From Candidatus Dormiibacterota bacterium (GTDB taxonomy: Bacteria; Chloroflexota; Dormibacteria; Aeolococcales; Aeolococcaceae): DNA of 64,000 bases. A program made the position numbers and the translations under genes. The notes beneath the pieces were generated by a model. It did no database searches and was not told where the DNA came from. It saw nothing but the letters and a program-made list of their open reading frames with translations. Shown here piece after piece: positions 39,239 to 53,824 of the stretch (its first letter is position 1; every line of letters starts with the position of its first letter). The stretch spans positions 84,701-148,700 of the forward strand of contig PMOL01000011.1 in NCBI GenBank assembly GCA_003162415.1, written 5' to 3'.

Positions 39239-41659
39239 ATGGCCAAGCGAGATCTCAGCGAATCAGACATCTGCGCCAAGTTCATCACCCCCGCCCTGAT
39301 CGGCGCCGGCTGGGATGAACTCACACAGCTACGGAGGGAGATCTCCTTTACCAAGGGCCAGATCAAAGTGCGCGGCAAAATGGTGACCCGCGGAGAAGGG
39401 AAGCGCGCGGACTACATCCTCTACTTCAAACCCAACATGCCACTCGCGGTCATCGAGGCCAAGGACAACAAGCACTCCGTCGGGGACGGCATGCAACAGG
39501 CACTCGATTACGCCGAGTTCCTGCAGGTTCCCTTCGTCTTCTCATCCAACGGCGACGGCTTCGTCTTCCACGACTCGACCGGGCTCGGCGATGAGCTAGA
39601 GGCAACCTTGCCGATCGACAAGTTCCCATCCCCCCAGATGCTGTGGGCCCGCTACTGCCAGTGGAAGGGAATCACCCCCGAGGCGGAGCCGCTCGTCCTT
39701 CAGGACTACTTCGACGACGCGAGCGGTCGCTACCCGCACTACTACCAGATGAATGCGGTCAACGCCGCTGTCGAGGCGGTCGCAAAGGGTCGGGACCGCC
39801 TCCTCCTGGTCATGGCCACCGGAACCGGCAAGACGTACACCGCATTCCAGATTATCTGGCGGCTCTGGAAGGCCGGCCACAAGAAGCGGATTCTCTACCT
39901 CGCCGACCGCAATTTGCTCATCGACCAGACCATGGTCAACGACTTCCGCCCCTTCGGCGGGGTGATGGCCAAGCTGAGCACCCGGAACAAAACGATCGGC
40001 CCCGATGAGGGCCCCGAATTGAACATCAACCTTGCGATCGACAAGCACCGCCGCATAGACACTGCCTTCGAGGTTTACATGAGCCTCTACCAGGCGATCA
40101 CCGGGCCCGAGGAACGGCAGAAGCTCTTCAAAGAGTTCTCGCCAGTCTTTTTCGATCTGATCGTGATCGATGAGTGTCATCGCGGTAGTGCCGACGAGGA
40201 ATCTGCGTGGCGGGAAATCCTCGACTACTTCTCCAGCGCCACACAGATCGGCATGACCGCGACCCCCAAGGAGACCGAGTTCGTCTCCAACATCCACTAC
40301 TTCGGCGATCCCATCTACACATACTCACTGAAGCAAGGCATCCTCGACGGCTTTCTCGCGCCGTTCAAGGTCATCCGGTCTCACATCGATCTGGATGTCG
40401 GAGGCTATCGGCCGGAGCCGGGGAAGCGGGACATCGAGGGACAAGAGATCGAAGATCGCGTCTACAACCCGCGCGACTTCGAGCGGACTCTGGTAATCGA
40501 CGATCGCACCAAGTTGGTGGCTGAGCGAATCAGCGAGTTCTTACGGGAGAGCGGCGACCGCTTCCAGAAAAGCATCATCTTCTGCGTCGATCAGGAGCAC
40601 GCCGCGCGCATGCGGCAGGCGCTGATCAATGCCAACAAAGACCTGGCGACCAACCCCCGCTACGTGATGCGTATCACGGGTGGTGCCCCGGAGGGTCAGG
40701 CTCAACTTGGCAACTTCACGGATCCGGAGAGCATTTACCCGGTACTCGTGACGACGTCTCGGCTCCTGTCCACCGGTATCGATGTGCAGACCTGCAAGTT
40801 GATCGTCATCGACAAGCAGATCGAATCCATGGGCGAGTTCAAGCAGATCATCGGCCGAGGCACACGGGTTCGTGAGGATGCCCACAAGTTCTACTTCACC
40901 ATCCTGGATTTCCGCGGCGCCTCGAATCACTTCGCCGACCCGGACTTCGACGGACCCCCAATCGAGATCTACGTACCTCCGAGCGGTGGACCGATGGTTC
41001 CACCCGACGACACCGAACCACCCGAGCCCGAGCCGGGCGAGATCATCGTGTCTGAACCCCCGCCGTATTACTCAGCGGAGAAGGGCGTGGGCGGACGACC
41101 GAAGATCTACATCAACGGCGTTCCTGCACAGATCATTCACGAGACCATTCAGTACGTCGACCACGACGGCAAGCTGATCACCGAAACACTCCGCGACTAC
41201 TCGAAGCGAACCATAACGGAGCACTTCGTGAGCCTTAGTTCTTTCCTCCAGCGTTGGAGCTCGTCAGAGCGTAAACAGGCGATCGTCGAAGAGCTGTCTG
41301 CTGAATGCATCCCGCTCGAGATCCTCGCAGATGAGGTTGGCAAGGACCTCGATCCCTTCGACTTGGTCTGCTACGTGGCCTTCGGTCAACCCCCGTTGAC
41401 CCGCAAGGAGCGTGCAGACAATGTACGTAAGCGGGATGTCTTCGCCAAGTACGGGTCACAGGCGAGAGCCGTTCTTGAGGCGCTCTTGCGTAAGTACCAA
41501 GATGACGGCATTGTGGATCTCAGTGATGTACGCATTCTGCAGATCCCCCCGCTGGATCAGATGGGCACGCTTGTGCAGTTGATCAAGGGCTTCGGCTCTC
41601 GCGATCAGTTCGAGCATGCCGTCCACGAGATGCAGGCTGCGCTCTATGAGGCCGCCTGA
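39239..41659 (+). CDS. hsdR: Type I restriction enzyme R subunit (endonuclease/helicase)
   Basis: N-terminal PD-(D/E)xK nuclease (ADYILYF...VIEAKD). SF2 helicase motifs I (MATGTGKTYTA) and II (DECHRG). Confidence 0.9.
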   Translation: MAKRDLSESDICAKFITPALIGAGWDELTQLRREISFTKGQIKVRGKMVTRGEGKRADYILYFKPNMPLAVIEAKDNKHSVGDGMQQALDYAEFLQVPFVFSSNGDGFVFHDSTGLGDELEATLPIDKFPSPQMLWARYCQWKGITPEAEPLVLQDYFDDASGRYPHYYQMNAVNAAVEAVAKGRDRLLLVMATGTGKTYTAFQIIWRLWKAGHKKRILYLADRNLLIDQTMVNDFRPFGGVMAKLSTRNKTIGPDEGPELNINLAIDKHRRIDTAFEVYMSLYQAITGPEERQKLFKEFSPVFFDLIVIDECHRGSADEESAWREILDYFSSATQIGMTATPKETEFVSNIHYFGDPIYTYSLKQGILDGFLAPFKVIRSHIDLDVGGYRPEPGKRDIEGQEIEDRVYNPRDFERTLVIDDRTKLVAERISEFLRESGDRFQKSIIFCVDQEHAARMRQALINANKDLATNPRYVMRITGGAPEGQAQLGNFTDPESIYPVLVTTSRLLSTGIDVQTCKLIVIDKQIESMGEFKQIIGRGTRVREDAHKFYFTILDFRGASNHFADPDFDGPPIEIYVPPSGGPMVPPDDTEPPEPEPGEIIVSEPPPYYSAEKGVGGRPKIYINGVPAQIIHETIQYVDHDGKLITETLRDYSKRTITEHFVSLSSFLQRWSSSERKQAIVEELSAECIPLEILADEVGKDLDPFDLVCYVAFGQPPLTRKERADNVRKRDVFAKYGSQARAVLEALLRKYQDDGIVDLSDVRILQIPPLDQMGTLVQLIKGFGSRDQFEHAVHEMQAALYEAA

Positions 41660-41661
41660 TC

Positions 41662-43116
41662 GTGGCTGTTCGCAACACCGTCAAGTCGATCCAGGACATC
41701 ATGCGTCAGGATGCCGGCGTCGACGGCGATGCCCAGCGCATCTCCCAGCTCTGCTGGATGTTTTTTCTGAAGATCCTCGACGACCAGGATCAGCAGCTCG
41801 AGATCCTCGATCCTGCCTACACGTCACCGGTCCCGCCGGAACTTCGCTGGGGCGCATGGGCTGCCAACGCTGAAGGGCTCACCGGCGAGGGGCTTCTCAA
41901 GTTCATCAACGAGGATCTCTTCCCCGGCCTCAAGGGGCTTGAACTGGCTGGAGCCCAAGCCCACCGCAAGCGCGTCGTCCAAGCCGTCTTCGAGGACGCG
42001 TACAACTACATGAAGTCCGGTCAGCTGGTTCGCCAGGTGATCAACAAGATCAACGAGGTCGACTTCAACGACCTCGCAGAACGCCAGCACTTCGGCGACG
42101 TCTACGAGCAGATCCTCAACGATCTCCAGAGCGCCGGCAACGCCGGCGAGTACTACACGCCACGAGCTGTGACGGCTTTCATGGCCGAAAGGGTCGACCC
42201 CAAGCCGGGCGAGATTCTGCTCGACCCGGCGTGTGGCACCGGCGGCTTCCTCACCTGTGCGATCCGCCACATGCGTGAGAACTACGTCAAGCGCCCCGAG
42301 GACGAGGCGCTTATCCAGGGTTCACTGCGGGCCGTCGAGAAGAAGCCCCTTCCCCACATGCTCTGCACAACGAACATGCTGCTCCATGGCATAGAGGATC
42401 CAAGTTTCGTCCGCCACGACAACACCCTAGCTCGCCCCTACGTCAGCTACGGCGCTGATGACCGCGTCGACATCGTGCTCACCAACCCACCCTTCGGTGG
42501 CAAGGAAGAGCCTGGCATCGAATCCAACTTCCCCGCCCATCTTCAGACCCGTGAGACAGCAGACCTGTTCCTCGCACTCATCATGCGTCTCCTCAAGAAA
42601 GACGGACGCGCTGCGGTTGTTTTGCCTGATGGCTCCCTCTTCGGGGAGGGGGTCAAAACGCGTCTAAAGGAAGCACTACTGACTGAGTGCAACCTGCATA
42701 CCATCGTTCGCCTTCCCAACAGTGTTTTCCGTCCCTACGCGAGCATCGGCACCAACCTGCTCTTCTTCGAGAAGGGCGAGCCGACGACTGACATCTGGTT
42801 CTACGAGCATCGTGTGACCGACGGGCAGAAAGCGTACTCGATGACTAGGCCGATCCGGCTCGACCATCTTCAGCCTTGTGTGGACTGGTGGGGCGGAGCA
42901 AGCCGCGAGGGCAGAATCGAGACCGAAGTCACTTGGAAGGTCACGGCTGAAGCGATCAAGGACCGTGGATACAACCTCGATATTAAGAATCCGCATGTGC
43001 TGGCTCGCAGCCACGGCAATCCCGAAGAGTTACTGTCCCAGCTCAATGCGGCAGAAGCCACCGTAGCACTGATTCGCACCAAGCTCAAAGAACAGTTGGA
43101 AGAGGCGTTGCGTTAG
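41662..43116 (+). CDS. hsdM: Type I restriction-modification system M subunit (N6-adenine DNA methyltransferase)
   Basis: HsdM_N region, AdoMet motif I (DPACGTGGFL) and catalytic NPPFGG. Confidence 0.9.
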   Translation: MAVRNTVKSIQDIMRQDAGVDGDAQRISQLCWMFFLKILDDQDQQLEILDPAYTSPVPPELRWGAWAANAEGLTGEGLLKFINEDLFPGLKGLELAGAQAHRKRVVQAVFEDAYNYMKSGQLVRQVINKINEVDFNDLAERQHFGDVYEQILNDLQSAGNAGEYYTPRAVTAFMAERVDPKPGEILLDPACGTGGFLTCAIRHMRENYVKRPEDEALIQGSLRAVEKKPLPHMLCTTNMLLHGIEDPSFVRHDNTLARPYVSYGADDRVDIVLTNPPFGGKEEPGIESNFPAHLQTRETADLFLALIMRLLKKDGRAAVVLPDGSLFGEGVKTRLKEALLTECNLHTIVRLPNSVFRPYASIGTNLLFFEKGEPTTDIWFYEHRVTDGQKAYSMTRPIRLDHLQPCVDWWGGASREGRIETEVTWKVTAEAIKDRGYNLDIKNPHVLARSHGNPEELLSQLNAAEATVALIRTKLKEQLEEALR

Positions 43117-44678
43117 TGCCAGCCAACATCTTGCTTCGGGAGATGCAGCGTGTGAGCGAGGCTCCGGGCTCCATCTCGGCCTTTCGCCGTCTCGCTCTGG
43201 AGCTCGGGCTCTCAGGCCAGCTTACGCGACACACGGCGTCGGAACCATCTGAATACAGGTCTCTCGGGCAAGTTGCGGAACTCATCATGGGACAAGCGCC
43301 GCCCGGTTCTGATTGCAATCTCCGTGGTGAGGGTGTGGTCTTTGTCAAGGTGGGGGAGTTTGGACCGCTTTATCCCCAAGAGGTGGTATGGACGACGCGA
43401 CCACGGAGGATGGCACGCAAAGGCGACGTTCTGATTTGTGTGGTCGGCGCGACTGTTGGGAAGCTAAACCTCGGGATCGATTGCGCAATCGGGCGCAGTG
43501 TCGCGGCGCTGCGTCCAAGCCCTTCCATTGATACCAAGTTCCTCTACATGTCCCTCATGCCGTATACGCTTGGGCTTCGGACGGGCGCTCGCGGCTCGGC
43601 GCAAGGCGTCATTGGTCGTTCCGATCTCTCTTCGATTTCTATTTGGTGCCCCTCGCTTGCAGAGCAAGGTGACATAGTCGTCCAGATCGAAGGTCTATGG
43701 TCTCTATGCGACGAGTTAGGAGCAGCGCAACACGTTCGCGACAACATGCGCGATGCAGCCGCAGCCGCAGCCCTGGGCAGCCTGACCTCGACCTCTAATG
43801 CGGCGCCGTTCGACTCCAACGCATTTACGACCCGCGCCCACTTCTACATCAACAACACACCCAAATTCATCACTCGCCCCGAGCATGTCGCTGAGATCCG
43901 CAAGACCGTACTCAATCTCGCTGTCCGTGGCCGGCTGGTGCCCCAGGATCCACTCGATGAGCCTTCAGCGCATCTGCTGTTACGTTTGCGTGATCAACAA
44001 CGGCGGCCCACGTCGACCAACGGCTCAGAAACGCCTCGCCCATTCACGATCCCGGGCTCATGGGCGTGGTGCCGCTTTCCGGAAGTTGGTACCTTCGGCA
44101 GGGGCACCTCCAAGCATCGCCCAAGAAATGACTCCTCGCTTTTCCGCGACGGGAGCTATCCCTTCATCCAGACTGGAGACGTGGCTAGGTCGGGCGGCAC
44201 GATTCGGACGTTCACAAGCCTGTACAACGAGGCGGGTCTGGCACAGAGCGCAGAGTGGCCAATCGGTACCCTCTGCATAACCATCGCCGCAAATATTGCC
44301 TGTAGTGGAATCCTATCTTTCAAAGCTTGCTTTCCGGACAGTGTTGTTGGGCTAGTGGTTGCAGAAGAGCTTGGCGACGCACGATATTTCGAGTACTTCG
44401 TTCGCACAGCCCGAGACGACCTTTCCCAGTACGCGCCATCGACCGCACAAAAGAATATCAACCTGGCAATCCTGAACGAGGTCGCCATACCTCTACCCCC
44501 ACTAGCGGAGATGCGGCGCATCGTTTCCAAGGTCGATGCGTTAATGACTGTTTGTGACGAACTCGAGGACAGCCTCTTGACCGCGCAATCCGAGGGAAGC
44601 CGCTTCCTCCAGGCAACGCTATTCGAGTGCCTCGCGAACTTCGGCTTTGGCAACGCTCCCCCCGCGTTGTCGGCCTGA
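43116..44678 (+). CDS. hsdS: Type I restriction-modification system S (specificity) subunit
   Basis: Two target-recognition domains separated by conserved coiled-coil spacers. It is coupled to the hsdM stop. Confidence 0.8.
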   Translation: MPANILLREMQRVSEAPGSISAFRRLALELGLSGQLTRHTASEPSEYRSLGQVAELIMGQAPPGSDCNLRGEGVVFVKVGEFGPLYPQEVVWTTRPRRMARKGDVLICVVGATVGKLNLGIDCAIGRSVAALRPSPSIDTKFLYMSLMPYTLGLRTGARGSAQGVIGRSDLSSISIWCPSLAEQGDIVVQIEGLWSLCDELGAAQHVRDNMRDAAAAAALGSLTSTSNAAPFDSNAFTTRAHFYINNTPKFITRPEHVAEIRKTVLNLAVRGRLVPQDPLDEPSAHLLLRLRDQQRRPTSTNGSETPRPFTIPGSWAWCRFPEVGTFGRGTSKHRPRNDSSLFRDGSYPFIQTGDVARSGGTIRTFTSLYNEAGLAQSAEWPIGTLCITIAANIACSGILSFKACFPDSVVGLVVAEELGDARYFEYFVRTARDDLSQYAPSTAQKNINLAILNEVAIPLPPLAEMRRIVSKVDALMTVCDELEDSLLTAQSEGSRFLQATLFECLANFGFGNAPPALSA

Positions 44679-45104
44679 TTCACGTCTCGCACACCATGCG
44701 AATGACCAGTTGAACGCCCAGCGACTTTGATCTATCCCGCCACGACCTGCACGGCTAACCTAACGAGGTGAAGGTTTCATGGAACTCCGGGTGGTATTCC
44801 TGACGCGTCGTGAAAGGTGGATCCGTCTCAGCCCGGATGGGAGCCGAGGCGATGTCGTGCTTTGAGCACGATGGCCTGCTCCGTCGCCCAGATGCACTTC
44901 ATCCACGCACTCGTGAACAAGGGATTGTCGATCACGGGGCCCGGACCGGTCCGTTTCGGCGACGGGTTCCCCCCCATCCACGTCCAATACACTCGACGAC
45001 ATCCCGGTTAGGCAGGTCACCACACTCCCCTACCGACAATCATTCCGGCAGCCCGACATATCACCTAGGGCTGTATGATCGTGCTCGCGGTAGCGGGTCG
45101 GTGC

Positions 45105-45965
45105 TCAGTGACCGAACAAGCGTCGGTGGTAGGCAAGGAACTCCGGGTCAATACGGTGGCGCGGATGTCTACGTAGTAGCCCCAGGTCTGCACCCGTTTC
45201 CGCCGCCAACACCCGGTGTTCGGCGGTTATAAAGATGGCGCCTTTATCCAGTCGGACGTGGTCGTTTGGGCAAAGGCACAGCACGTTCTCCGCCACGTCT
45301 GGGCCGTTGTGCGGCATCCCCAGCGGCTTTATGTGCGCTCCCTCGGCGTAGGCAACCCCCGCCGGCAGCGCCACCTTCGTACCGCACACCTGACACGTGT
45401 AGTCGTTCAGCTGCTTCACTCCGACCGCGACCACCGTGTCTCGGACAATTCGCATCACGGTGGATGCCACGCGCTCGGGGGGCCCCGTCGGAACTGTTCC
45501 TGCCCTGTGCGGGACTGTTGCATGGTCCGTCTTGACCAAGTCAAAACGACAAATCTTCGGTCCGTCCTGGCTATCGTCCTCCCAACTCCGCACTACCGCG
45601 TACAGCCCGTCATACCGAAAGCCTTGGGTTGGCGAAAATGCCGGGTCACCCTTCGACCCGGGTATCACCCGGACAGGAAGGCCCTCCGCCTCGTTGACGC
45701 GCACGCCTTGATTGGCTTGCTCCCACACCTGGTCCTTGACCTGCCGCCCAGCGGCGTCCTGACCGCCGTAGCCGGTGTAGATGATTTCGTCGCCGTAGTC
45801 GTGGTCATCCTGGTAGCCGCCGTTAAGGACGATCGACTCGGTGCCGCGTTGCGCGCCTCCGACCATCCCGGCTTGCCGGTTGCGATGGACACCGGCAGCG
45901 ACCAGCGCCGCCCTGTCACGGTAGGCGGTGCCTGGGGGATTGCCATCGATGGCGCCGAAGGGCAT
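45105..45965 (-). CDS. SRA(YDG)-HNH modification-dependent restriction endonuclease (Type IV, ScoMcrA/TagI-like)
   Basis: N-terminal SAD/SRA domain with the YDG motif (GFRYDGLY). C-terminal HNH (CQVCG...HIKP...NVLCLCPNDH). Confidence 0.75.
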   Translation of the reverse strand: MPFGAIDGNPPGTAYRDRAALVAAGVHRNRQAGMVGGAQRGTESIVLNGGYQDDHDYGDEIIYTGYGGQDAAGRQVKDQVWEQANQGVRVNEAEGLPVRVIPGSKGDPAFSPTQGFRYDGLYAVVRSWEDDSQDGPKICRFDLVKTDHATVPHRAGTVPTGPPERVASTVMRIVRDTVVAVGVKQLNDYTCQVCGTKVALPAGVAYAEGAHIKPLGMPHNGPDVAENVLCLCPNDHVRLDKGAIFITAEHRVLAAETGADLGLLRRHPRHRIDPEFLAYHRRLFGH

Positions 45966-46050
45966 CGGCTCATACGGTAATTCCGGGCAGCCCCGCCCGG
46001 CAACAGCGAACGCCGATTCGCGGGACCGACCCCGTTCCTCGGGCCGCCAG

Positions 46051-46917
46051 TTACTTCTGAACGACGGTCCCGGATTGCGGCGCCGGCGGCGCCACCACCG
46101 TATATATAGGGGCCAACTCTGACTCGGCGACCGCGAAGATTTTCACGCCGGTGCCGGCCTCGTCGAACTTGACGACCACCTCTTCGCCCGCACGGGTCAT
46201 GGTGCTCTTCAGGATGGTCCCGTCACCGTACCTGGGGTGGCGGGCGCGCGTGCCTTCGCTGAACCGCGCCGACGCCAATTGCGCTTTCGTGGGTTTCCAG
46301 ACCACGATTGGCTCGGCGTCGCGTTCCTCGTCCTCGATCTGCACAAGGTTGCTGACGTCACGTTGCACGCTGCGCATGATCCCCAGCATCTCCTCGACCA
46401 TTTCGCCGGTATCCCGTTTCGCTGGTGGACCGTCCGGCGCGACCTTTCTGACGCCATCCAGCTGCTGTTGCAGCACGGGCCACCATTGCTCGAACGCAGC
46501 GGATACGCGCGGCTCGTCCAGGGGTTCGCTGCATGCGCCATTGATCGAACGCACCAGTCCGTGGATATCCTGCTTCGTCAGGGTGGCCATCTGGAATGTG
46601 GCAAGTGGTCCAGTTACATCGGTGGGTTTCAGGTCCACCAGCACCGGTGCAGCCCTCCCGATCGCGAAGGCCTTTGACAGGGCACCTGCCTCGAAATTCA
46701 GCCACTCAGACGACACGTTCTCCCTGGTGACGCACAGCACGCCAAAGCCGCTGTCGTCCAACTCCTTCGCGATTTCGCTCACCCACCGCGCCCCCTTGTC
46801 GATGTCTTCCGCGGAAAGGAGCGTCTGCACCGACTGCAGGACAGACGGCAGCCACGCGTGGAACGCGTCGGCCAACGCTCGGCCACCTCTACCAGACCAG
46901 GCCAGAAACACCTTCAC
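46051..46917 (-). CDS. TIR-domain protein with C-terminal UvrD-C/Tudor-like (DUF3553-like) domain
   Basis: N-terminal bacterial TIR/DUF1863 pattern (KVFLAWSG...DIDKGARW...VLCVTRENVSSEWLNFEAG). The C-terminus (RARHPRYGDGTILKS...VVVKFDEAGTGVKIFAVAESELAPI) matches the UvrD/PcrA C-terminal Tudor-like motif. Confidence 0.65.
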   Translation of the reverse strand: MKVFLAWSGRGGRALADAFHAWLPSVLQSVQTLLSAEDIDKGARWVSEIAKELDDSGFGVLCVTRENVSSEWLNFEAGALSKAFAIGRAAPVLVDLKPTDVTGPLATFQMATLTKQDIHGLVRSINGACSEPLDEPRVSAAFEQWWPVLQQQLDGVRKVAPDGPPAKRDTGEMVEEMLGIMRSVQRDVSNLVQIEDEERDAEPIVVWKPTKAQLASARFSEGTRARHPRYGDGTILKSTMTRAGEEVVVKFDEAGTGVKIFAVAESELAPIYTVVAPPAPQSGTVVQK

Positions 46918-47195
46918 AGGCTGATTCTAGCTTCGGCCGGTCGGCGCCCCAAGTGGCCGACCGCTGCGGGCGCGGCCCGAACGGGGATTCACCGCGTACA
47001 GGGCGTTCTTCGCCGCTCAACCCGGTTTCTTCGTCAAGCACCCGGTCCTGGACGGTGCCGCGCGACCCGAAACCGTCGGAATGTGCCCCGCTATACCCGC
47101 CATCGGTCCACCGGTCCCCAACGATCGCCCCTCGGCGGTGGTACGGGGTCGTCAGCGCCCCACGATGATTCAGCGGCGCCGCGCCGGTTAGGCTG

Positions 47196-47918
47196 GTGAC
47201 CCCGATGATCTTTGAACGCCACGGCCAGTTACCCGCTTGCCGCTTGACCCAACAGGACCTCAGCAACCTTGGGGACATTTTTCAGGCGGTCCAGAAAGCG
47301 ACGAACGCCACGGGCGTCTACAAGATCGAAACCCCGTGGGGCACCTATTCCGCGGACAAGCTGAGTCTTCAGAGTCCCTCGTATGCGCCCCGTGACGTCG
47401 TCCGCCTCGAAATGACGCTTCAGTGGGCGGACGGGAACGCACGTCTGACGCTCGACCTTGACGTGCGCCCGTTCCGTGATGCACCTGGTGCTCCTGTCGA
47501 CCGCAGTTGGCTGGCGGTCGAAGGGCAGGAAGAAGTCGTAAGGCCCCTGTGGCGCGATGTCATGGACGTCATTGATCGTCGTCGGTCCGTCATGGGCGCC
47601 ATCCTCAGTTCGCCGAATGTGCAGATACTCGGTCTAATCGTCGCGATCGTCGCCGGGATACTCCTCCCGTACTACACGCTGAAGAAAGCGCGGGTCAACG
47701 ACTCGGCGATTCTGCCAGTGATCGTTGCAACCGCACTCGTCGCTGGGCTGATCTACCTTGCAGTCCTCGTCCCCGCCGGCGCCGCCCGCGTGCAGGTGGC
47801 CGGATGGGGAAGGCTGTCAAGCACACGCGGACGGGTCGCCTTTTGGGCGGTGACCGTTTTCGCGGGAGTCGTCGTGTGGGCGGTTACCCTTCTCCTCACC
47901 TTCTGGCTGTCGAAGTAG
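47196..47918 (+). CDS. hypothetical membrane protein (about 150-aa soluble N-domain plus three C-terminal TM helices)
   Basis: Hydrophobic segments (ILGLIVAIVAGILL, ILPVIVATALVAGLIYLAVLV, VAFWAVTVFAGVVVWAVTLLLTFWL). No recognisable domain. It is transcribed divergently from the TIR gene. Confidence 0.5.
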   Translation: MTPMIFERHGQLPACRLTQQDLSNLGDIFQAVQKATNATGVYKIETPWGTYSADKLSLQSPSYAPRDVVRLEMTLQWADGNARLTLDLDVRPFRDAPGAPVDRSWLAVEGQEEVVRPLWRDVMDVIDRRRSVMGAILSSPNVQILGLIVAIVAGILLPYYTLKKARVNDSAILPVIVATALVAGLIYLAVLVPAGAARVQVAGWGRLSSTRGRVAFWAVTVFAGVVVWAVTLLLTFWLSK

Positions 47919-47936
47919 CCGGCTGTCGCCGAAGCG

Positions 47937-49040
47937 CTAGTTGGGTCCCAGACCGCTGACCACGACCAGGCCTGCAGGGATCGACACGCCGCAGTCGAAC
48001 CTCGACACGACCAGGAGTCCGGTCTGGTCATTCGCCGCATATGTCTCCAGCAGGATCCGCATGTAACCGACCAGGTCGATTGCCACGAAGACCGTTCGCG
48101 GATCGACCAGCAGCGCAGTCGCGTTCGGCAGCGTTCCAGCTGGTGCTGGGACGACCGTGCGACCCAGGATCTGCTCAGCGCCCTGCACGGTCAGGTCAGG
48201 CGACAGCAGCGACCTTCCCAGTGTGTCGGTCAATTTGCGCAGCGTTCCGATGGTCTGCGCGTTGACGACCCAGAACTTCGGGTCGGCGTAGGCGTCCTGT
48301 GCCGCTGTCAGCGCGTCGGTCATCTGCGCCAGGATCGACTCGCCGACTGTGATCGTCAGCGTGACGCCACCGCCAGTTGCGGTCGCCGCGGCGCTGATGA
48401 CGGCGGTCGTGGCATTGGTGACGCTGGCCATGGTCGCGCCGGCGGGAATGCCCGCGCCGCTGATACTGCTGCCGACGTCGGCACTGGTGAACGCTGCGGT
48501 CGCGGACGTGATCGTCGTGGTGCTGTTCAGTACGCCGTCAGCAACGAAGCGCGAATGCTTGATCACCGTGGCGGCCTTCGGGATCAGACCGGTGATGCCA
48601 GCGGTTGCGTCGCCGTTGAACAGCGCCTTGTCGACCTGCTTGCGCAGCAGGTTCGTGATCGCGAACTGCGACGCTGTCAGCGCCGCGCTCGACCGCATCG
48701 ACTCGTTCGAAATCCGAACCATGACCTTCAGCGCGCGCAGGTCGCGGCCCATCGGTACCAGCTCGGACGTCGCGCCCTCGAATTCCGGCACGTCGCCGTT
48801 CGGCTCCACCCACACGCTCTCGTCGACGACCTGCTCGGCCATGCGCGGGATGTGTAGCGGGTGGTTGGTCTGCACTGCCTGCACACCGGGCATTGACATG
48901 ATCACCCTGTCCGCCATAAGCGGCGTGACGACGATCCCCAACCACTCCTCGGGCGTCAGTTCGGACCCGGCGCCAAGTACTGCTGGGGATAGGGCTGGCG
49001 TGACGGTCACCTCGTGATGTGTCACCCGATGTGGGCACAC
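47937..49040 (-). CDS. phage major capsid protein, HK97 fold
   Basis: Length and motifs are typical of HK97-family capsid proteins (...PEEW..., C-terminal LLVDPRTVFVAIDLVGYMRILLETYAANDQTGLLVVSRFDCGV). No other structural genes are adjacent. Confidence 0.7.
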   Translation of the reverse strand: MCPHRVTHHEVTVTPALSPAVLGAGSELTPEEWLGIVVTPLMADRVIMSMPGVQAVQTNHPLHIPRMAEQVVDESVWVEPNGDVPEFEGATSELVPMGRDLRALKVMVRISNESMRSSAALTASQFAITNLLRKQVDKALFNGDATAGITGLIPKAATVIKHSRFVADGVLNSTTTITSATAAFTSADVGSSISGAGIPAGATMASVTNATTAVISAAATATGGGVTLTITVGESILAQMTDALTAAQDAYADPKFWVVNAQTIGTLRKLTDTLGRSLLSPDLTVQGAEQILGRTVVPAPAGTLPNATALLVDPRTVFVAIDLVGYMRILLETYAANDQTGLLVVSRFDCGVSIPAGLVVVSGLGPN

Positions 49041-49167
49041 GCGCTGATCACGGGCTCTGTCCCAGCGCCCTTAGACGGCCATCCCGGCTCCGTCAGCTTG
49101 CGCCGAACTGCTGCACCCCGGATCGTCCGAACGGTTAGCCATTGTCGAGCAGCACCGTCCGGTCGTC

Positions 49168-50322
49168 CTACGCCTCGCCGATGCCCGCTTCTGCAGCGGC
49201 CTTTAGCCAACGACGGGCCTGGCCCAGCTCCGCCGGGTCGAGCAAGGTGGCGAGCGGCTGCCCGAGGTTGTACTGGGCGAAGGGGTCACCGCCCTCGGCA
49301 GCCGCTGTCAACCAGCGTCGAGCCTCGTCCAGGTCGGGCCGGTCGAGTTCGGTGGCCCACATCCCGAGGCAGTACTGGGCGTGGGCGTTGCCGGCTTCGG
49401 CGGCGGACGTGAACCAGCGGCGGGCCTCGTCACGATCGGGCCGGGTCGCGCCAAAGTGCGAGCACCCCGAGGGTAGTCCTTGGCGTCGGTGTGACCGGCC
49501 GCGGCGGCAGCGGTGAACCAGCGGCGGGCCTCGTCGACCTCGGGCGGGTAGAACCGGAAGGCGAGCAGCCGCCCGAAGCGGTATTGAGCGTCAGTGTCAC
49601 CGGCTTCGGCGGCCGACGTGAACCAACGGCGGGCCTCGTCGCGCTCGGGCCTGTCGGGCCGAAGGAGCAGCCACCCGAGGTAGGTCTGGGCGGCGACGTA
49701 GCCGGCTTCGGCGGCGGCCGTGAACCAGCGGCGCGCCTCCTCCAGATAAGGCGGGTCGAGTTGGGTGACGAGCAGCTGCCCGAGCCTGTACGGGGCATCG
49801 ACGACACCGGCTTCGGCGGCGGCCGTGAACCAGCGGCGAGCCTCGTCGACCTCGGGCGGGCTGAGCAACGTGGCTAGCAGCCACCCGAGGTGGGTCTGGG
49901 CGGCGACGTCACCGGCTTCGGCGGCGACCGTGAACCAAACGGCGAGCCTCCCCGAGCTCGGGTGGGTCGAGTTGGGTGGCGAGCAGCACCCCGAGGTGGA
50001 TCTGGGCGGAGACCCGGCCGGCTTCGGCGGCGGCGGTGAACCAACGGCGAGCCTCCTCGAGCTCGGCAGGGTCGAGTTGCGTGGGTTCGCTCACCGGAGC
50101 ATCATGTGCGCTCACTGCGACAGGTGGGTGTCGCCGTGCTCTGGTGGCTCGGCGCCGAGTCAAGGTGGTCGGTCGGAGCGAGATGATCACGTCGCACGTG
50201 GTTCGCGTCATCTGGATCGCCAGCAGACTTACGGCGTCACAGCCTCCCTGGCAGTCCCGAACGGGTTGCTCCTTTCGGGCTTGCACGGCCCTCCGAAACG
50301 CCCGAAGGTCCTTCCAAATCAC
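49168..50322 (-). pseudogene. Sel1-like repeat (SLR/TPR-like) protein gene, disrupted by at least two frameshifts
   Basis: Three consecutive minus-strand ORF pieces in different frames (49909-50322, 49308-49868, 49168-49362). Each encodes repeats of about 35 aa of the form EARRWFTAAAEAG..AQY.LG.LL. Confidence 0.5.
49200..50100. repeat. imperfect tandem repeat, period 105 bp, about 8 copies (encodes the Sel1-like repeats)
   Basis: The motif gtgaaccagcggcg(g/a)gcctcgtc recurs at about 49305, 49410, 49515, 49620, 49725, 49830, 49935 and 50040. Confidence 0.6.
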
Positions 50323-50377: not shown

Positions 50378-51457
50378 GTGCGGGATTACGCCCTCCTGCT
50401 CGTCGACGGGCATCTGCGCCCGCCACCCCCCGATCCAACGATCTGGGTCAGTTCCGCGCATGGCATTGAGCAGGTCGTCAAGGTTCATCTGACGCAGGCT
50501 GCCGACGTCCCGGCCGAGCCTGCGGACGTCGCGGCCGAGATGCGGAAGTTGCAGCTGCAGATCTTGATGACGAAGGCGTCGAGCACACTGCGGGCCTACC
50601 TCACCGATCTCCGAGACTTCAACGCGTACTGTCAAGCGCAGGGGTCGACGGCGCTGCCTGCGGCGCCAGAGACGATCGCCCGTTACCTCGCTACTCTCGT
50701 CGAACGCGGCTACAAGCCGTCAACGATCTTGCGCCGGCGAGCATCTATCGCGAGGGCGCACCGGCTCGCCGGCCACCGCTTCTCCGAGATAGCCGATACG
50801 TTGGTTCGGCCGCTCCTCGGCACTCTCCGACGACAGATGCAATTTTCCGCGAAAAAGCCGGCGCTGGACGTCACCACCCTGCGGCGGATGCTGCGAGCCA
50901 CCCCGCAGCGGACTGCGGCTGGCGCCCGAGACCGGCTCATGCTCTTGCTTGGTTTCGCCGGCGGACTCAGGGCGAGTGAGTTGATCGCCCTTGACGTCAG
51001 AGACATCCACGTGACCGACCAGCATCTACGGCTTCTGCTCCCGGACGCACGCACCGGCTCGTGGTACGTCGCGCGCGAGGTCGCTATTCCCCGCGGCGAA
51101 CATCCGGAAACCTGCTCCGTGCGCGCAATTCGGGCCTGGTACGCGATCAGTGATATCCATAGCGGGGCCCTCTTCCGGCCCATCGACCGCCATGGTCGGG
51201 TGGGAGCAACACGGCTCAGCGCCCGCGCGGTGGCGCTCGTGATCAAGCGAGCAGCCCAAGGCGCCGGCATCGATCCGACGCTCTACGCCGGCCACTCGTT
51301 GCGCGCCGGCTTCGTGACTGCGGCGCTGGCGGGTGGCGCCCCGGAGCGCGTCATCGTTGTGCAGACAGGGCTTCACTCGCTGTCGGGTGTGCCCCGCTAC
51401 CTTCGTCGCAGACGGAGTCGGCTCGACAGGGACGCCGCAGCCTATTTGGGGCTGTGA
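50378..51457 (+). CDS. tyrosine-type site-specific recombinase (XerC/D-like phage integrase family)
   Basis: N-terminal SAM-like core-binding domain, then a catalytic domain with R...HSLR...Y (AGHSLRAGFVTAA...VPRYLR). The real start may be downstream, at the Met at about 50540-50567. Confidence 0.75.
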   Translation: MRDYALLLVDGHLRPPPPDPTIWVSSAHGIEQVVKVHLTQAADVPAEPADVAAEMRKLQLQILMTKASSTLRAYLTDLRDFNAYCQAQGSTALPAAPETIARYLATLVERGYKPSTILRRRASIARAHRLAGHRFSEIADTLVRPLLGTLRRQMQFSAKKPALDVTTLRRMLRATPQRTAAGARDRLMLLLGFAGGLRASELIALDVRDIHVTDQHLRLLLPDARTGSWYVAREVAIPRGEHPETCSVRAIRAWYAISDIHSGALFRPIDRHGRVGATRLSARAVALVIKRAAQGAGIDPTLYAGHSLRAGFVTAALAGGAPERVIVVQTGLHSLSGVPRYLRRRRSRLDRDAAAYLGL

Positions 51458-51736
51458 GGGCCCCCTGACTAGCCTCAAACGTAACCGCGCTTCAAGAGCG
51501 TCCGACCCAGCGCCACGAGTCTCAACACCCTCGTCACTCGCTGGTGCATCCCGTCGCCTCCCCGAGGAAGGACGAAGGCGGATCTCAATCTCGGCGTGAA
51601 TCTGGCGAACGGTACCTCGCGTTGCCGTAGGTACATAGATGAGTGACTGGTAGCTCGCGCAACGCGATGGGGGGATTCCTCCGCCTCGCTGATTGGCTCC
51701 GCCACCCGGCCACGATCGCTGTGCTGGGGCGCGTCC

Positions 51737-51940
51737 TCATCGGCCTTCCGATCGAAGTGCCTCGATGTATTGATCGAGGTCGCTCACGGCAACGCGGACG
51801 GCTCGCCCAAGCTTCACCCGCGGGAGTTCGCCTCGGGCCAGGAGCCGTTCGACGTGGCGCCGACTACAGCTCAAATAGATCGCCGCGTCGCTCAGGGTCA
51901 CCAACCGACGGCACGTCGGTACGTCGAGTCCATTCGCCAC
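51737..51940 (-). CDS. excisionase/MerR-like HTH DNA-binding protein
   Basis: A 67-aa helix_turn_helix_17-type protein (LSDAAIYLSCSRRHVERLLARGELP). It lies immediately upstream of the integrase in the same orientation. Confidence 0.7.
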   Translation of the reverse strand: MANGLDVPTCRRLVTLSDAAIYLSCSRRHVERLLARGELPRVKLGRAVRVAVSDLDQYIEALRSEGR

Positions 51941-52089
51941 CGACTTTCTCCACGACCTGTCTTCAAACAGTCGCTGCAGCGAGTGGAGAGGCGGTGCGTC
52001 ATCGGGGCGGTCATTCCCCGATGGAGCTCAGTTGGCGACAGCTAGAAAATACACCCCGTTGTGGTGCCGTGTCAAAGGAGCCAAACGAC

Positions 52090-53259
52090 TCAAGCGAAGA
52101 CCCCGTTCAACGCCTCCGCGGCGCTGCGTTGCATGGTCTCGGTCACGTGCGAATAGAGGTCCAGGGTGACCGCAACGGTTGCGTGCCCAAGCATCTCGCT
52201 GGCCACCTTCGGGTGCACGCCGCGGCTCAACATGAGGGTCGCCGCGGTGTGGCGCAGATCATGGAAGCGGATGGGAGGGAGCGCTGAGCGACGCAGCAGA
52301 GCCTTGAACTGTTCGGTCAGACGCGACGCGTGCAGGTAACCACCCGTCGCGCTGCAGAACACGAGATCGCGGTCCTGCCAGACATTGGCGGCGGCAACCC
52401 GTTCAGCGACCCACGCGCTGCGCCGCTGGCGCAAAGCATCGAGCGCGACCGCGGTGAGTTCGACGCGGCGACGCGATCGTCGCGTCTTCGGCTCGGTCGA
52501 CTCCAAGTGCGAGCGTGGAACCCCCGGATCTCTGGCGAGCCGCCGCGGCGTGTAGACGCGGACCAGGCTCCCCGTCACCGCCAAAGAGCCACCGTCCAGG
52601 TCGACGTCGGACCAGCGCAGCGCGAGCAGCTCGCCCTGGCGGAGACCTGCGGTCACGGCCAGCACGTAGAGCGCCTCCAGACGGTCGCCCACGACGGCGT
52701 CAACCAGTCGCCGGGCCTGCTCGGGCGAGAGGACGGACATGTCGCGGTGGGTCACCCGCGGGGGGTCGACGAGCCCAGCAATGTTGGTGGGAAGCACGCG
52801 CCAGCGGACGGCCTGTTGGAGCGCTCGATGGAGGGTCGCATGGCTCCGCTTGACCGTCGCTGGACTCAGGCCCCGATCCAGGAGCGCAGCGTACGCACGT
52901 TGGACATCTCCGGGGCCCAGCCGCTCCAACCAGAGCCGACCGAGATGCGGAATCAGGTGCAGCCTGACCTGTTCCTCGTAGCGGTCCCACGTGCGCGGTT
53001 TTAAGGACGGCCGGACACCGTCGAGCCAGTCCATGAGGTATGACGCGACGGTCTGTCGCCTCGGCAGCGGCGTGAGTCCACTGTCGCGATTGCGGGTTGC
53101 GTCGCGGAGCTTCTGGGCGGCCTCGTGGCGGGTCTTGCCGTACACCGCTTTCCGGCTCACACGGCCCGTGGCATCGGTCGTCACGTAGCGAGCCTGCCAG
53201 CGCCCATCCGGCAGCGGCCGCGACCCGACCGTCCCCTCGCCGGCGGTACGTTTCCTCAT
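52090..53259 (-). CDS. tyrosine-type integrase (phage integrase family)
   Basis: N-terminal arm/SAM-like domains (GRWQARYVTTDATGR...). The catalytic domain carries the R, HxxR and Y residues (RHTAATLM...LGHATVAVTLDLYSHV). The start is MRKRTAGEG at 53259, adjacent to the tRNA 3' end. Confidence 0.85.
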   Translation of the reverse strand: MRKRTAGEGTVGSRPLPDGRWQARYVTTDATGRVSRKAVYGKTRHEAAQKLRDATRNRDSGLTPLPRRQTVASYLMDWLDGVRPSLKPRTWDRYEEQVRLHLIPHLGRLWLERLGPGDVQRAYAALLDRGLSPATVKRSHATLHRALQQAVRWRVLPTNIAGLVDPPRVTHRDMSVLSPEQARRLVDAVVGDRLEALYVLAVTAGLRQGELLALRWSDVDLDGGSLAVTGSLVRVYTPRRLARDPGVPRSHLESTEPKTRRSRRRVELTAVALDALRQRRSAWVAERVAAANVWQDRDLVFCSATGGYLHASRLTEQFKALLRRSALPPIRFHDLRHTAATLMLSRGVHPKVASEMLGHATVAVTLDLYSHVTETMQRSAAEALNGVFA

Positions 53260-53388
53260 GCCCTCGACGATACGCCGATTGGCATCGATTGGCATCACCA
53301 TTGGCATCAGTTGCCCAAAATGGCCCGGCAAGGCCGCCGTGTTGCGGTCGCAGCCGGACGCGAAATCCCTTATGCTGTATGAGAAATC

Positions 53389-53479
53389 CGGAGCGAGAGG
53401 GATTCGAACCCTCGATACCGCTTGACGCGGTATACCGCATTTCCAGTGCGGCGCCCTCGGCCAACTAGGCGATCGCTCC
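53389..53479 (-). tRNA. tRNA-Ser (anticodon GGA)
   Basis: Cloverleaf with a 7-bp acceptor stem (GGAGCGA/TCGCTCC), a 3-bp D stem, the anticodon loop CUGGAAA, a long variable arm and the T arm GGTTCGAATCC. CCA is not encoded. Confidence 0.8.
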
Positions 53480-53824
53480 TCCGCGATTGTATCCGCCACC
53501 TGCCCACAGCCCCCTCGCGCCACCAGCCGCCGGTTTCGCCCCCACCGCCTACAGGGTATCTACCATCTGAGCTTCATTTCGCCTCAGGGAGAAACTCGTC
53601 ATGTGTGTCCTGTTCGCCTTCCTCCTCTTTACAGCCCTGCTCTTCGGTTTGGGATTCGCGCTCCACGTCCTCTGGTGGATCGCCTTCATCTTCCTGATCT
53701 TCTGGCTAATCGGGCTCGCGTTTCGCCCGCGGGGCGGACGCTGGTACTACTGGTAACGCGGCGGCCGCAGATCGCGCGATCGCACGGGTCCAGGTCGGGG
53801 CTCGCCCGTATACTCGACGCTCCC

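What the first reader, a model, noticed from the sequence alone, without database searches (positions are those of the whole stretch)
45105..47918. TIR-domain/Tudor-like protein co-oriented with an SRA-HNH nuclease and next to a three-TM protein: candidate uncharacterised defence module
The ORF at 46051-46917 has a clear prokaryotic TIR N-domain, with the conserved FEAG glutamate region, fused to a UvrD-C-terminal-like Tudor/DUF3553 domain. I do not recognise this architecture among the well-known TIR systems (Thoeris ThsB, TIR-STING, TIR-SAVED, Pycsar). It lies 85 bp upstream of, and in the same orientation as, the SRA-HNH endonuclease gene (45105-45965), so the two may be co-transcribed as a sensor/NADase plus nuclease pair. 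Directly upstream and divergent is a 240-aa protein with a soluble N-domain and three C-terminal TM helices. Thoeris type II effectors are small TM proteins, so this resembles a TIR plus membrane-effector arrangement. All of this sits inside an integrase-bounded island beside a Type I RM system, which is typical defence-island context.
Basis: partly seen in the sequence, partly recalled or inferred. Interest (0 to 1): 0.75.

Follow-up and report, generated by a model that had tools for sequence, protein, structure and literature searches.

The report
Stand-alone TIR–Tudor defence gene, not a module
The three neighbouring genes are real but appear unrelated to one another: the interesting one is a single, mobile gene that fuses a TIR (NAD-cleaving immune) domain to the RNA-polymerase-binding Tudor domain of the UvrD helicase, a new variant of a TIR family known from a phage-borne defence system.

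Summary
46051-46917(-) encodes an N-terminal TIR with an invariant FEAGAL glutamate (E76) and a C-terminal UvrD/PcrA-type Tudor domain. 45105-45965(-) is an SRA-HNH protein. 47196-47918(+) has a soluble domain plus three TM helices.

The three-gene module is not supported.
- The SRA-HNH is a full-length homologue of the stand-alone type IV restriction enzyme TagI.
- The 3TM gene is paired with the neighbouring phage-capsid gene in all four contexts seen. Two of those demonstrably lack a TIR gene.
- No TIR homologue locus examined (84 besides the window's own contig) carries either neighbour within the flanks fetched.
- For the two closest TIR homologues, DNA similarity to the window is confined to the TIR gene itself.

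The first ~190 residues belong to the TIR family of the validated "2TM-1TM-TIR" system of P2-like phage AC1. That family is spread across many phyla, has no conserved partner gene, and has a hypervariable C-terminus. Some C-termini are RNAP alpha-CTD, L7/L12 CTD, or an SSB-like DDIPF tip.

Most likely this is a single-gene TIR sensor-effector carried as cargo in a tRNA-Ser island. I infer that the Tudor domain is the sensing or docking part. It is a new variant of a known kind, of moderate interest.

The parts
46051..46917 (-). TIR-Tudor gene (288 aa). This is the actual feature of interest. It behaves as a single-gene cassette.
   Evidence: ORF. PADLOC TIR-TM E=1e-66 over residues 1-190. phrog_13899 E=2e-62. 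DNA homology to the closest relatives L087 and L088 covers only window 46124-46958.
46516..46917 (-). TIR domain (residues ~1-134) with the putative catalytic Glu76 in the motif W72-x3-E76 (FEAGAL).
   Evidence: Pfam TIR_2 above cut-off. Invariant columns in 120 homologues. AF2 plus Foldseek match to plant and SPARTA TIRs.
46327..46515 (-). Two long helices (residues ~135-197). They belong to the family-conserved N-terminal module (W145, P147, L149, E176, L178, R182 nearly invariant). Possibly an oligomerisation or linker element.
   Evidence: AF2 helices H135-158 and H170-197. Conservation in alignment A3. The PADLOC model covers residues up to 190.
46114..46266 (-). UvrD/PcrA-type Tudor domain (residues ~218-268), with a conserved Lys259 in G-V-K.
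   Evidence: Profile against PDB: 7egs_B E=2.5e-12. Foldseek: 7egs_B TM 0.81, 5dma TM 0.83. Alignment A1.
45105..45965 (-). TagI-like SRA-HNH modification-dependent (type IV) restriction endonuclease. An independent neighbour, not a partner of the TIR gene.
   Evidence: phmmer against PDB: TagI 6ghs_A E=1.1e-76 over residues 3-282. Pfam SAD_SRA and HNH_2. More than 2146 homologues. The closest homologues have no TIR neighbour.
47196..47918 (+). Gene for a protein with a soluble alpha/beta domain plus three TM helices, from a rare family with a conserved GWGR motif. It is linked to the capsid gene, not to the TIR gene. Function unknown.
   Evidence: 2 close homologues and 13 representatives among 1.84 billion proteins. 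Convergent with a capsid gene in L086, L089 and L095. AF2 pLDDT 80.9 with no significant fold match.
47937..49040 (-). Lone HK97-type major capsid gene, part of the backbone of the mobile element that carries the cargo genes.
   Evidence: Pfam Phage_capsid E=8e-21. TIGR01554 E=2e-24. 63% identical to the capsid gene next to the TIR-Tudor gene in the comM-inserted element L001.
50378..53479 (.). Right end of the island: XerC/D-like recombinase (50378-51457 +), excisionase-like HTH_17 (51737-51940 -), tyrosine integrase (52090-~53380 -), tRNA-Ser(GGA) (53389-53479 -).
39239..44678 (+). Type I restriction-modification system hsdR-hsdM-hsdS, another independent defence system on the same island.

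Best explanation
The region is a patch of independent defence cargo on an integrative element at tRNA-Ser. It holds a Type I RM system, a TagI-like SRA-HNH type IV restriction enzyme, and a stand-alone TIR-Tudor gene. The cargo sits beside the element's capsid/3TM backbone pair.

The TIR-Tudor protein is a single-chain sensor-effector. Its first ~190 residues (TIR plus two helices) are the conserved enzymatic module of a large, mobile TIR family. That family includes the TIR gene of the phage-AC1 2TM-1TM-TIR defence system. Its C-terminus is the exchangeable specificity module.

In this variant the specificity module is the UvrD/PcrA Tudor domain. In those helicases the Tudor domain binds a beta-hairpin 'helicase interaction motif' in RNA polymerase beta and in UvrB.

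Proposed mechanism (inferred, not shown): the Tudor domain docks the protein on RNAP or UvrB, or captures a phage protein that targets or mimics that site. Infection-induced clustering of the TIR domains then switches on NAD+ cleavage through Glu76. This depletes NAD+ and aborts the infection.

Shown here: the domain identities, family membership of the TIR module, the lack of any conserved partner gene, and the cassette-like mobility.

Inferred: NADase activity, the defence role of this variant, the Tudor ligand, and the trigger.
For: - Domains.
- The catalytic motif is invariant in 120 homologues.
- Family identity: PADLOC TIR-TM E=1e-66. The same model hits phage P2_AC1 gp02 at 2.7e-118, and its neighbours gp04 and gp03 hit the 2TM-TIR and 1TM-TIR models. 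The three AC1 genes protect E. coli against lambda, LF82_P8 and P2 (PMC9122126).
- The family also occurs as a solitary, terminator-flanked moron in lambdoid phage mEp390 and has its own PHROG.
- Solitary nature: at least 566 matches among GTDB species genomes, spread across many phyla. No neighbour cluster is shared by more than 3 of 82 loci. The commonest adjacent Pfam family is Phage_integrase (7/120), with scattered RM, HepT and PDC genes.
- Cassette behaviour: homology to L087 (82% DNA identity) and L088 (79%) is limited to window 46124-46958. Homology to the TIR-less L095 starts only at 47106.
- C-terminal swapping: 58 C-terminal clusters among 202 proteins. Tudor accounts for 13, RNAP alpha-CTD for 8, and an SSB-like DDIPF tip for 5.
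- The Tudor ligand in helicases and the K727A loss of RNAP binding come from PMC8318588.
- Precedent: single-protein TIR systems defend E. coli, need the TIR active site, and are triggered by specific phage proteins (PMC11350192). A recent Thoeris survey sets stand-alone TIRs apart from signalling TIRs (bioRxiv 10.64898/2025.12.03.692087).
Against: - No member of the Tudor subgroup, and no solitary member of this family, has been tested.
- The only validated relative was tested as a three-gene operon with two TM proteins. The passages I read do not say whether the TIR gene alone suffices.
- Small TM genes are enriched immediately upstream of family members, so some members may need a membrane partner.
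- The window protein's own Tudor hit is below Pfam's cut-off.
- The Tudor part of the model has only moderate confidence (pLDDT 60-80).
- The largest C-terminal class has no recognisable similarity to any host module, so 'C-terminus = host-machinery docking' is not a general rule.
- Co-transcription of the TIR gene with the SRA-HNH gene cannot be excluded. The 85-bp gap has no recognisable terminator or promoter.
Confidence: 0.55

Rival explanations
1. One reading: a three-gene system. TIR-Tudor senses infection or makes a signal, the co-transcribed SRA-HNH nuclease acts with it, and the divergent 3TM protein is a Thoeris-II-like membrane effector.
For: The genes are adjacent. The TIR and SRA-HNH genes are co-oriented with an 85-bp gap and no recognisable terminator. 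The setting is a defence island.
Against: - No co-occurrence in 84 other TIR loci.
- No co-occurrence in 4 loci of the closest SRA-HNH homologues.
- No co-occurrence in the 3TM loci where it could be checked (L086, L095).
- The SRA-HNH is a full-length TagI homologue, an enzyme that works alone.
- The 3TM gene is always paired with the capsid gene instead.
- DNA homology breakpoints isolate the TIR gene as its own unit.
Confidence: 0.04
2. TIR-Tudor is a ThsB-like signal generator. It needs a membrane effector, as proposed for the related 2TM-1TM-TIR system. The effector would be the adjacent 3TM protein (an analogue, not a homologue) or a gene elsewhere.
For: - Rousset et al. proposed that the AC1 TIR may make a nucleotide messenger that activates the associated TM proteins.
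- Small proteins with at least 2 TM helices are enriched at position -1 of family members (11/76 vs 21/469, Fisher p=0.002).
- A TM gene lies between the capsid and TIR-Tudor genes in both the window and L001.
Against: - No homologue of the AC1 2TM or 1TM genes is found in the window or in any of the other loci held, apart from AC1 itself.
- The upstream TM proteins are not detectably related to one another or to the window's 3TM protein.
- The window's 3TM gene is divergent, not operonic.
- It occurs without a TIR gene in L086 and L095.
- TIR-Tudor homologues in L002, L087, L009 and L047 have no TM neighbour.
Confidence: 0.12
3. Not host defence. The mobile element (satellite or prophage remnant) would use TIR-Tudor to manipulate its host or helper phage. 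It could sit on RNAP or UvrB through the Tudor domain and displace UvrD/PcrA, or act as an addiction/toxin module that stabilises the island.
For: - The gene rides with a capsid-bearing element in two lineages (the window, and L001 inside a comM-splitting element with a serine recombinase).
- Free PcrA Tudor domain competes with the helicase for RNAP in vitro and in vivo (PMC8318588).
Against: - Most family members, including Tudor ones (L005, L009, L014, L047, L002), are not next to capsid genes.
- The family's one tested member is a defence system.
- The strictly conserved TIR catalytic motif argues for an enzymatic role, not merely a competitive one.
Confidence: 0.1

Closest known systems
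TIR protein of the 2TM-1TM-TIR system of P2-like phage AC1 (Rousset et al. 2022; PADLOC models TIR-TM, 2TM-TIR, 1TM-TIR; DefenseFinder name Rst_2TM_1TM_TIR, recalled from memory)
   Same: The N-terminal ~190 residues are homologous (PADLOC TIR-TM E=1e-66; tblastn 44% identity over 162 aa). Both are carried by a mobile or viral element as accessory cargo.
   Different: The window has no 2TM or 1TM partner genes. The C-terminal ~100 residues are unrelated: a Tudor beta-barrel here, against a helical 'LLRDP...LLPxEY' region in AC1. The mechanism of the AC1 system is itself unknown.
Stand-alone single-protein TIR systems of E. coli (TIR-V, TIR-VI, TIR-IX; Wang et al. 2024, PMC11350192)
   Same: One gene, dependent on the TIR active site, with a non-TIR part thought to recognise a specific phage protein. 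This is the working model I adopt.
   Different: TIR-V and TIR-IX superpose in their C-termini and differ in their N-termini, apparently the opposite layout to the N-terminal TIR here. I could not compare sequences. No Tudor domain is reported.
Thoeris ThsB (signal-producing TIR) with ThsA or other effectors
   Same: A TIR domain with the catalytic Glu, in a defence-island setting.
   Different: No ThsB model hit at E<0.1 for the window protein. No adjacent effector gene is conserved. The 2025 Thoeris survey explicitly excluded stand-alone TIRs.
C-terminal Tudor domain of UvrD/PcrA helicases (PDB 7EGS, 6YI2, 7EGT, 5DMA)
   Same: Sequence-profile and fold match. The G-x-K lysine is conserved. 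From memory, I map it to PcrA K727, whose mutation abolishes RNAP binding.
   Different: It is attached to a TIR domain instead of an SF1 helicase. Whether it still binds RpoB or UvrB is untested.
TagI, the SRA-HNH 5mC/5hmC-dependent restriction endonuclease (PDB 6GHS), for gene 45105-45965
   Same: Full-length homology, E=1.1e-76, with the same SRA plus HNH order and the same Cys/His motifs in the alignment.
   Different: None found. It is an ordinary member of a family with more than 2000 homologues, mostly actinobacterial.
Integrated decoys of plant NLR immune receptors (analogy only, from general knowledge)
   Same: An immune executioner domain is fused to a copy of a host domain that pathogens target. 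This could describe the Tudor, alpha-CTD, L12-CTD and SSB-tip variants.
   Different: No NLR/STAND module is present. The decoy role here is purely hypothetical. I found no paper linking bacterial TIRs to this idea.

Membership tests
TIR domain (Pfam PF13676 TIR_2) | Profile match above the curated cut-off | tested here: met
   35.4 bits against 28, residues 3-116. All 120 homologues match.
TIR domain (Pfam PF13676 TIR_2) | Flavodoxin-like TIR fold | tested here: met
   AF2 pLDDT above 90 over most of residues 1-160. Foldseek prob 1.0 to RPS4, RPP1 and SPARTA TIRs.
TIR domain (Pfam PF13676 TIR_2) | Catalytic glutamate in the alpha-C helix (W-x3-E motif of NADase TIRs) | tested here: met
   W72 and E76 are invariant in 120 sequences. 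Equivalence to RPS4 E88 rests on my memory of the motif.
TIR domain (Pfam PF13676 TIR_2) | NAD+ cleavage activity | not testable with these tools
   Needs an enzyme assay.
PcrA/UvrD Tudor domain (PF21196) | Profile match | tested here: met
   The window protein alone is below the cut-off (17.7 vs 23.9 bits). However, 5 of 7 orthologues match (best 4.7e-10), and the orthologue profile hits UvrD/PcrA CTDs at 2.5e-12.
PcrA/UvrD Tudor domain (PF21196) | Tudor beta-barrel fold | tested here: met
   7egs_B TM 0.81 with rmsd 1.8 A; 5dma TM 0.83. The model has pLDDT 60-80 in this region.
PcrA/UvrD Tudor domain (PF21196) | Binding to the helicase-interaction motif of RpoB/UvrB | not testable with these tools
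   The conserved Lys259 (G-V-K) is suggestive only.
2TM-1TM-TIR defence system (Rousset 2022) | TIR gene matching the TIR-TM model | tested here: inconclusive
   E=1e-66, but only model positions 1-197 of 293 are matched. The C-terminal third is replaced.
2TM-1TM-TIR defence system (Rousset 2022) | Adjacent 2TM-TIR gene | tested here: not met
   No PADLOC hit for any neighbour. tblastn with AC1 gp04 against the window gives E>=0.5.
2TM-1TM-TIR defence system (Rousset 2022) | Adjacent 1TM-TIR gene | tested here: not met
   tblastn with AC1 gp03 against the window gives E>=2.8.
Thoeris | ThsB-type TIR plus an adjacent effector gene (SIR2-SLOG, Macro-TM, etc.) | tested here: not met
   No ThsB hit at E<0.1. 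The 3TM protein has no Pfam or PADLOC domain (best hit 0.047 to a CBASS 2TM model) and no fold match.
TagI-like SRA-HNH type IV restriction enzymes (gene 45105-45965) | SRA domain followed by an HNH nuclease, with full-length similarity to TagI | tested here: met
   6ghs_A E=1.1e-76 over residues 3-282. Pfam SAD_SRA 9e-37 and HNH_2 8e-9.
TagI-like SRA-HNH type IV restriction enzymes (gene 45105-45965) | Cleavage dependent on 5mC/5hmC | not testable with these tools
   Needs biochemistry.

The most novel reading that the evidence does not exclude
This TIR family may be a set of 'bait-fused' immune sensors. A constant TIR killing module would be joined to swappable copies of host protein-interaction hubs: the UvrD Tudor domain (binds RNAP beta and UvrB), the RNAP alpha-CTD, the L7/L12 CTD, and an SSB-like acidic DDIPF tip. 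A phage protein that grabs one of these hubs, or a change in the hub's partner during infection, would cluster the TIR domains and trigger NAD+ depletion. That would be a bacterial counterpart of the integrated decoys of plant NLRs. The window's TIR-Tudor would be the RNAP/UvrB-hub member.
Probability: 0.2. Interest if true: 0.8.

Novelty: new variant of a known kind. Interest (0 to 1): 0.45.

Why it matters
How stand-alone bacterial TIR proteins recognise infection is largely open. Here the variable end of the protein is a domain whose ligand in helicases is already defined: a beta-hairpin motif in RNA polymerase beta and in UvrB. That gives a concrete hypothesis testable by pull-down, mutation of one lysine, and NADase assay.

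Sibling proteins carry RNAP alpha-CTD, L7/L12-CTD or SSB-tip-like ends. This hints that the family may watch central host machines. If true, it would extend the decoy/guard logic of plant immunity to single-gene bacterial systems.

The negative result also has practical value. Adjacency in a defence island is not a system. Annotators should call three separate entities here: Type I RM, a TagI-like type IV enzyme, and a solitary TIR.

Tried and rejected
- **att site.** I looked for a direct repeat of the tRNA-Ser 3' end to define the island. None was found.
- **Promoters and terminators.** The scan of 44600-48100 was uninformative: 0 promoters and 1 terminator-like site, fewer than in shuffled sequence.
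- **Rfam.** Only the two tRNAs matched in the whole window.
- **Remote homology of the 3TM protein.** I tested it against the similarly built upstream protein of L045 (soluble domain plus 3 TM). BLASTP found nothing and hhalign gave probability 0.2%, so I rejected it.
- **Relation to L001's protein.** The window's 3TM protein is not related to the 175-aa 2TM protein of L001.
- **Fold of the 3TM protein.** The best PDB match has E=0.013 and TM below 0.33, so no assignment is possible.
- **Conserved partner gene.** All-against-all BLAST of neighbours within 3 genes in 82 loci found no cluster larger than 3 loci. PADLOC and Pfam scans of 120 immediate neighbours found none either.
- **Largest C-terminal class.** The ~150-aa helical class of the family has no PDB sequence relative. 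This weakens any claim that all C-termini copy host modules.
- **Literature.** Searches for TIR with Tudor or RNA polymerase, and for bacterial integrated decoys, returned nothing relevant.
- **E. coli TIR-V/VI/IX.** I could not check whether they belong to this family, because I did not retrieve their sequences.


Full report
**What is there.** The window is part of a 156.7-kb metagenome contig (ENA ERZ27254046 k141_112646).

The ORF at 46051-46917(-) has these features:
- It matches Pfam TIR_2 above the curated cut-off (35.4 against 28 bits).
- Its FEAGAL motif, with Glu76 four residues after Trp72, is invariant in 120 homologues.
- Its own match to the PcrA/UvrD Tudor model is sub-threshold (E=0.0033), but the assignment is secure on other grounds.
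- Five of seven full-length orthologues hit that model, down to 4.7e-10.
- A profile of their C-termini finds the UvrD and PcrA C-terminal domains in the PDB at E=2.5e-12.
- The AlphaFold model (pLDDT 80.6) superposes on the UvrD CTD bound to the RNAP beta lobe (7egs_B, TM 0.81, rmsd 1.8 A) and on the PcrA Tudor domain (5dma, TM 0.83). Its N-domain matches plant and SPARTA TIR domains.

The ORF at 45105-45965(-) has SRA and HNH domains. The ORF at 47196-47918(+) has an alpha/beta soluble domain followed by three hydrophobic helices.

**The SRA-HNH gene.** It aligns over its whole length (residues 3-282) with the TagI restriction endonuclease, PDB 6GHS, at E=1.1e-76. From general knowledge, TagI is an autonomous modification-dependent SRA-HNH enzyme. 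The family is large, with more than 2146 homologues at E<=1e-30. The named examples are mostly actinobacterial, and sources annotate them as putative restriction endonucleases. The closest homologues on usable contigs (75, 73 and 57% identity) have no TIR gene or any other window gene next to them.

**The 3TM gene.** It belongs to a very small family. A word-indexed search of 5.8 billion proteins found two homologues. A full HMMER scan of 1.84 billion representatives found thirteen. In every context I could recover, it lies convergent to an HK97-type capsid gene, as in the window:
- L086: 77% DNA identity over window 47200-48211. The capsid gene is reduced to a 3' fragment.
- L089: 3TM protein 46% identical, capsid 78% identical.
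- L095: 80% DNA identity over window 47106-48432.

L086 and L095 have no TIR gene at the equivalent position. In L089 the contig ends too close to tell. The gene is therefore a backbone companion of the capsid gene, not a partner of the TIR gene. Its fold has no significant match in the PDB and its function remains unknown.

**The TIR gene's relatives.** The first ~190 residues hit one PADLOC model, 'TIR-TM', at E=1e-66. No Thoeris, CBASS or Pycsar TIR model scored at E<0.1.
- The same model hits gp02 of Escherichia phage P2_AC1 at 2.7e-118. The two genes upstream of gp02 hit the PADLOC '1TM-TIR' and '2TM-TIR' models.
- This is the three-gene system that Rousset et al. cloned from P2-like phage AC1. 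They showed it protects against lambda, LF82_P8 and P2. [quoted passage not shown]
- The family also occurs as a lone, oppositely oriented, terminator-flanked gene between Q and the lysis genes of lambdoid phage mEp390.
- It has its own PHROG of unknown function.

**Family-wide picture.** A search of 5.8 billion proteins gave 1642 hits. A scan of one genome per GTDB species gave at least 566 confirmed matches across many phyla: Actinomycetota, Acidobacteriota, Bacteroidota, Bacillota, Pseudomonadota, Planctomycetota, Nitrospirota, Verrucomicrobiota and others.

Identity is 35-50% over residues 1-190 and then collapses. Among 202 sampled proteins the C-terminal parts fall into 58 clusters, 46 of them singletons.
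- The largest class (111 proteins) is helical and includes the AC1 protein.
- The Tudor class has 13 members. The sample is biased towards it by my query.
- An RNAP alpha-CTD class has 8 members (Pfam E down to 4e-21).
- One protein carries an L7/L12 CTD, one a DUF397 and one a second TIR-like domain.
- Five proteins end in an SSB-like acidic tip...D-D-I-P-F.

**No partner gene.**
- In 82 loci, no neighbour family within three genes is shared by more than three loci.
- tblastn finds no SRA-HNH, no 3TM, no capsid (except in L001) and no AC1-type 2TM or 1TM genes near any of them.
- Among 120 immediate neighbours, the commonest Pfam family is Phage_integrase (7). There are scattered RM, HepT and PDC genes and some housekeeping genes.
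- The four closest TIR-Tudor homologues tell the same story. L087 (79% protein identity) and L088 (77%) share DNA similarity with the window only across 46124-46958, that is, the gene plus about 40 bp upstream.
- L002 (68%) and L001 (54%) also lack the SRA-HNH and 3TM genes.
- Together with the L095 breakpoint at 47106, this brackets the TIR gene as a separately acquired cassette.

**One residual signal.** Small proteins (under 300 aa) with at least two predicted TM helices are more frequent at the position immediately upstream of family members (11/76, nine on the same strand) than at the other seven positions examined (21/469; Fisher p=0.002). These proteins are not detectably related to each other, to the AC1 TM proteins or to the window's 3TM protein. 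My gene calls were crude. I keep this as support for a minority rival, that some members work with a membrane partner. It does not rescue the window's 3TM gene, which is divergent and capsid-linked.

**Context.** Island layout, from right to left:
- tRNA-Ser(GGA) at 53389-53479.
- A tyrosine integrase, an excisionase-like HTH and a second XerC/D-like recombinase.
- Fragmented Sel1-repeat ORFs.
- The lone capsid gene and the 3TM gene.
- TIR-Tudor, the TagI-like enzyme and a Type I RM system.

I found no att repeat.

In L001, a 63%-identical capsid gene and the 54%-identical TIR-Tudor gene lie in an ~8.6-kb element. That element splits a comM (Mg-chelatase) gene and ends in a large serine recombinase. 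It looks like a small capsid-encoding satellite with the TIR gene in the cargo slot next to the recombinase. This resembles the P4 and P2 hotspots described by Rousset et al..

**Mechanism (inference).** The invariant catalytic motif argues that the TIR domain is an enzyme.
- Stand-alone TIRs are generally treated as NAD+-depleting effectors rather than signal generators.
- Single-protein TIR systems in E. coli need the active site and are set off by particular phage proteins.
- In PcrA/UvrD, the Tudor domain binds a beta-hairpin motif, [VIL]-D-x-x-T-G-E-[VIL]-[VILT], found in RpoB and UvrB. Free Tudor domain competes for RNAP, and K727A abolishes binding (PMC8318588).
- The TIR-Tudor proteins keep the G-x-K/R lysine (K259 here). 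My mapping of K259 to K727 is from memory of the PcrA sequence.

I therefore propose that the Tudor domain docks the protein on RNAP or UvrB, or traps a phage protein aimed at that surface. Infection-dependent clustering would then activate NAD+ hydrolysis. The two conserved helices after the TIR domain may mediate oligomerisation. None of this is shown.

**Broader reading.** The alpha-CTD, L12-CTD and SSB-tip variants suggest that the exchangeable ends are copies of host interaction hubs used as baits. This is attractive but applies to a minority of members. The main helical class resembles nothing known.

**Verdict.** The domain observation is right and the three-gene module is wrong. What remains is a new C-terminal variant (UvrD-type Tudor) of a known but mechanistically unexplored TIR family, sitting as independent cargo beside a TagI-like enzyme and a Type I RM system. 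I found no paper describing a TIR-Tudor fusion. Interest is moderate. The value lies in a sharply testable sensing hypothesis and in the family-wide pattern of swapped C-termini.

Noticed in passing
window 47196-49040; loci L086, L089, L095, L001: A lone HK97-type capsid gene and a convergent 3TM gene form a conserved pair in four unrelated contigs. In L001 a related capsid gene lies in an ~8.6-kb element (about L001:1756-10366). That element splits comM and ends in a large serine recombinase. This may be an undescribed family of small capsid-encoding satellites or their remnants.
   Followed up: partly
homologues of the window TIR: P0017, P0020, P0030, P0046, P0053, P0059, P0062, L059 (alpha-CTD); P0022 (L12 CTD); P0094, L054, L069, L074, L081 (DDIPF tip): The same conserved TIR module is fused in other genomes to an RNAP alpha-subunit C-terminal domain, an L7/L12 C-terminal domain, or a tail ending in the SSB-like motif D-D-I-P-F. 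These are all copies of host protein-interaction hubs.
   Followed up: partly
80 GTDB loci L004-L083, position -1 relative to the TIR gene: Small multi-TM proteins with no detectable sequence similarity to each other are enriched immediately upstream of family members (11/76 vs 21/469, p=0.002). Examples are L013, L017, L021, L045, L048, L055 and L059. The L045 protein has the same soluble-domain-plus-3TM layout as the window's 3TM protein, but I could not show homology.
   Followed up: partly
window 49161-50322 (-): Three consecutive ORFs (49168-49362, 49308-49868, 49909-50322) all encode Sel1-type repeats. The DNA shows six copies of a degenerate repeat spaced about 105 or 210 nt apart. This looks like one repeat gene broken by frameshifts, either a pseudogene or an assembly error in a repeat.
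   Followed up: no
window 52090-53523 (-) and 53389-53479 (-): The longest integrase ORF overlaps tRNA-Ser(GGA), so its true start must lie downstream of 53389. The island has two tyrosine recombinases in tandem, which may mean two nested or tandem elements. No att repeat was found.
   Followed up: partly
L047:7288-8730 (-): In an Acidobacteria MAG, the TIR-Tudor gene has a second, unrelated TIR protein about 500 bp downstream and convergent. That protein has TIR_2 at its N-terminus and an FGE-sulfatase domain at its C-terminus.
   Followed up: no
L085 (phage mEp390, NC_019721) 3501-4319: A family member (gp47, 272 aa) sits as a reverse-oriented gene flanked by annotated bidirectional terminators, between the Q antiterminator and the holin genes. 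This is a classic lambdoid moron position.
   Followed up: no
L093/L094, downstream of the SRA-HNH homologue: The 57%-identical TagI-like gene is followed on the same strand by a small MazG-like gene and, further on, by a REase-ARP/PDDEXK_13 protein. This is another small defence cluster, unrelated to the window's arrangement.
   Followed up: no
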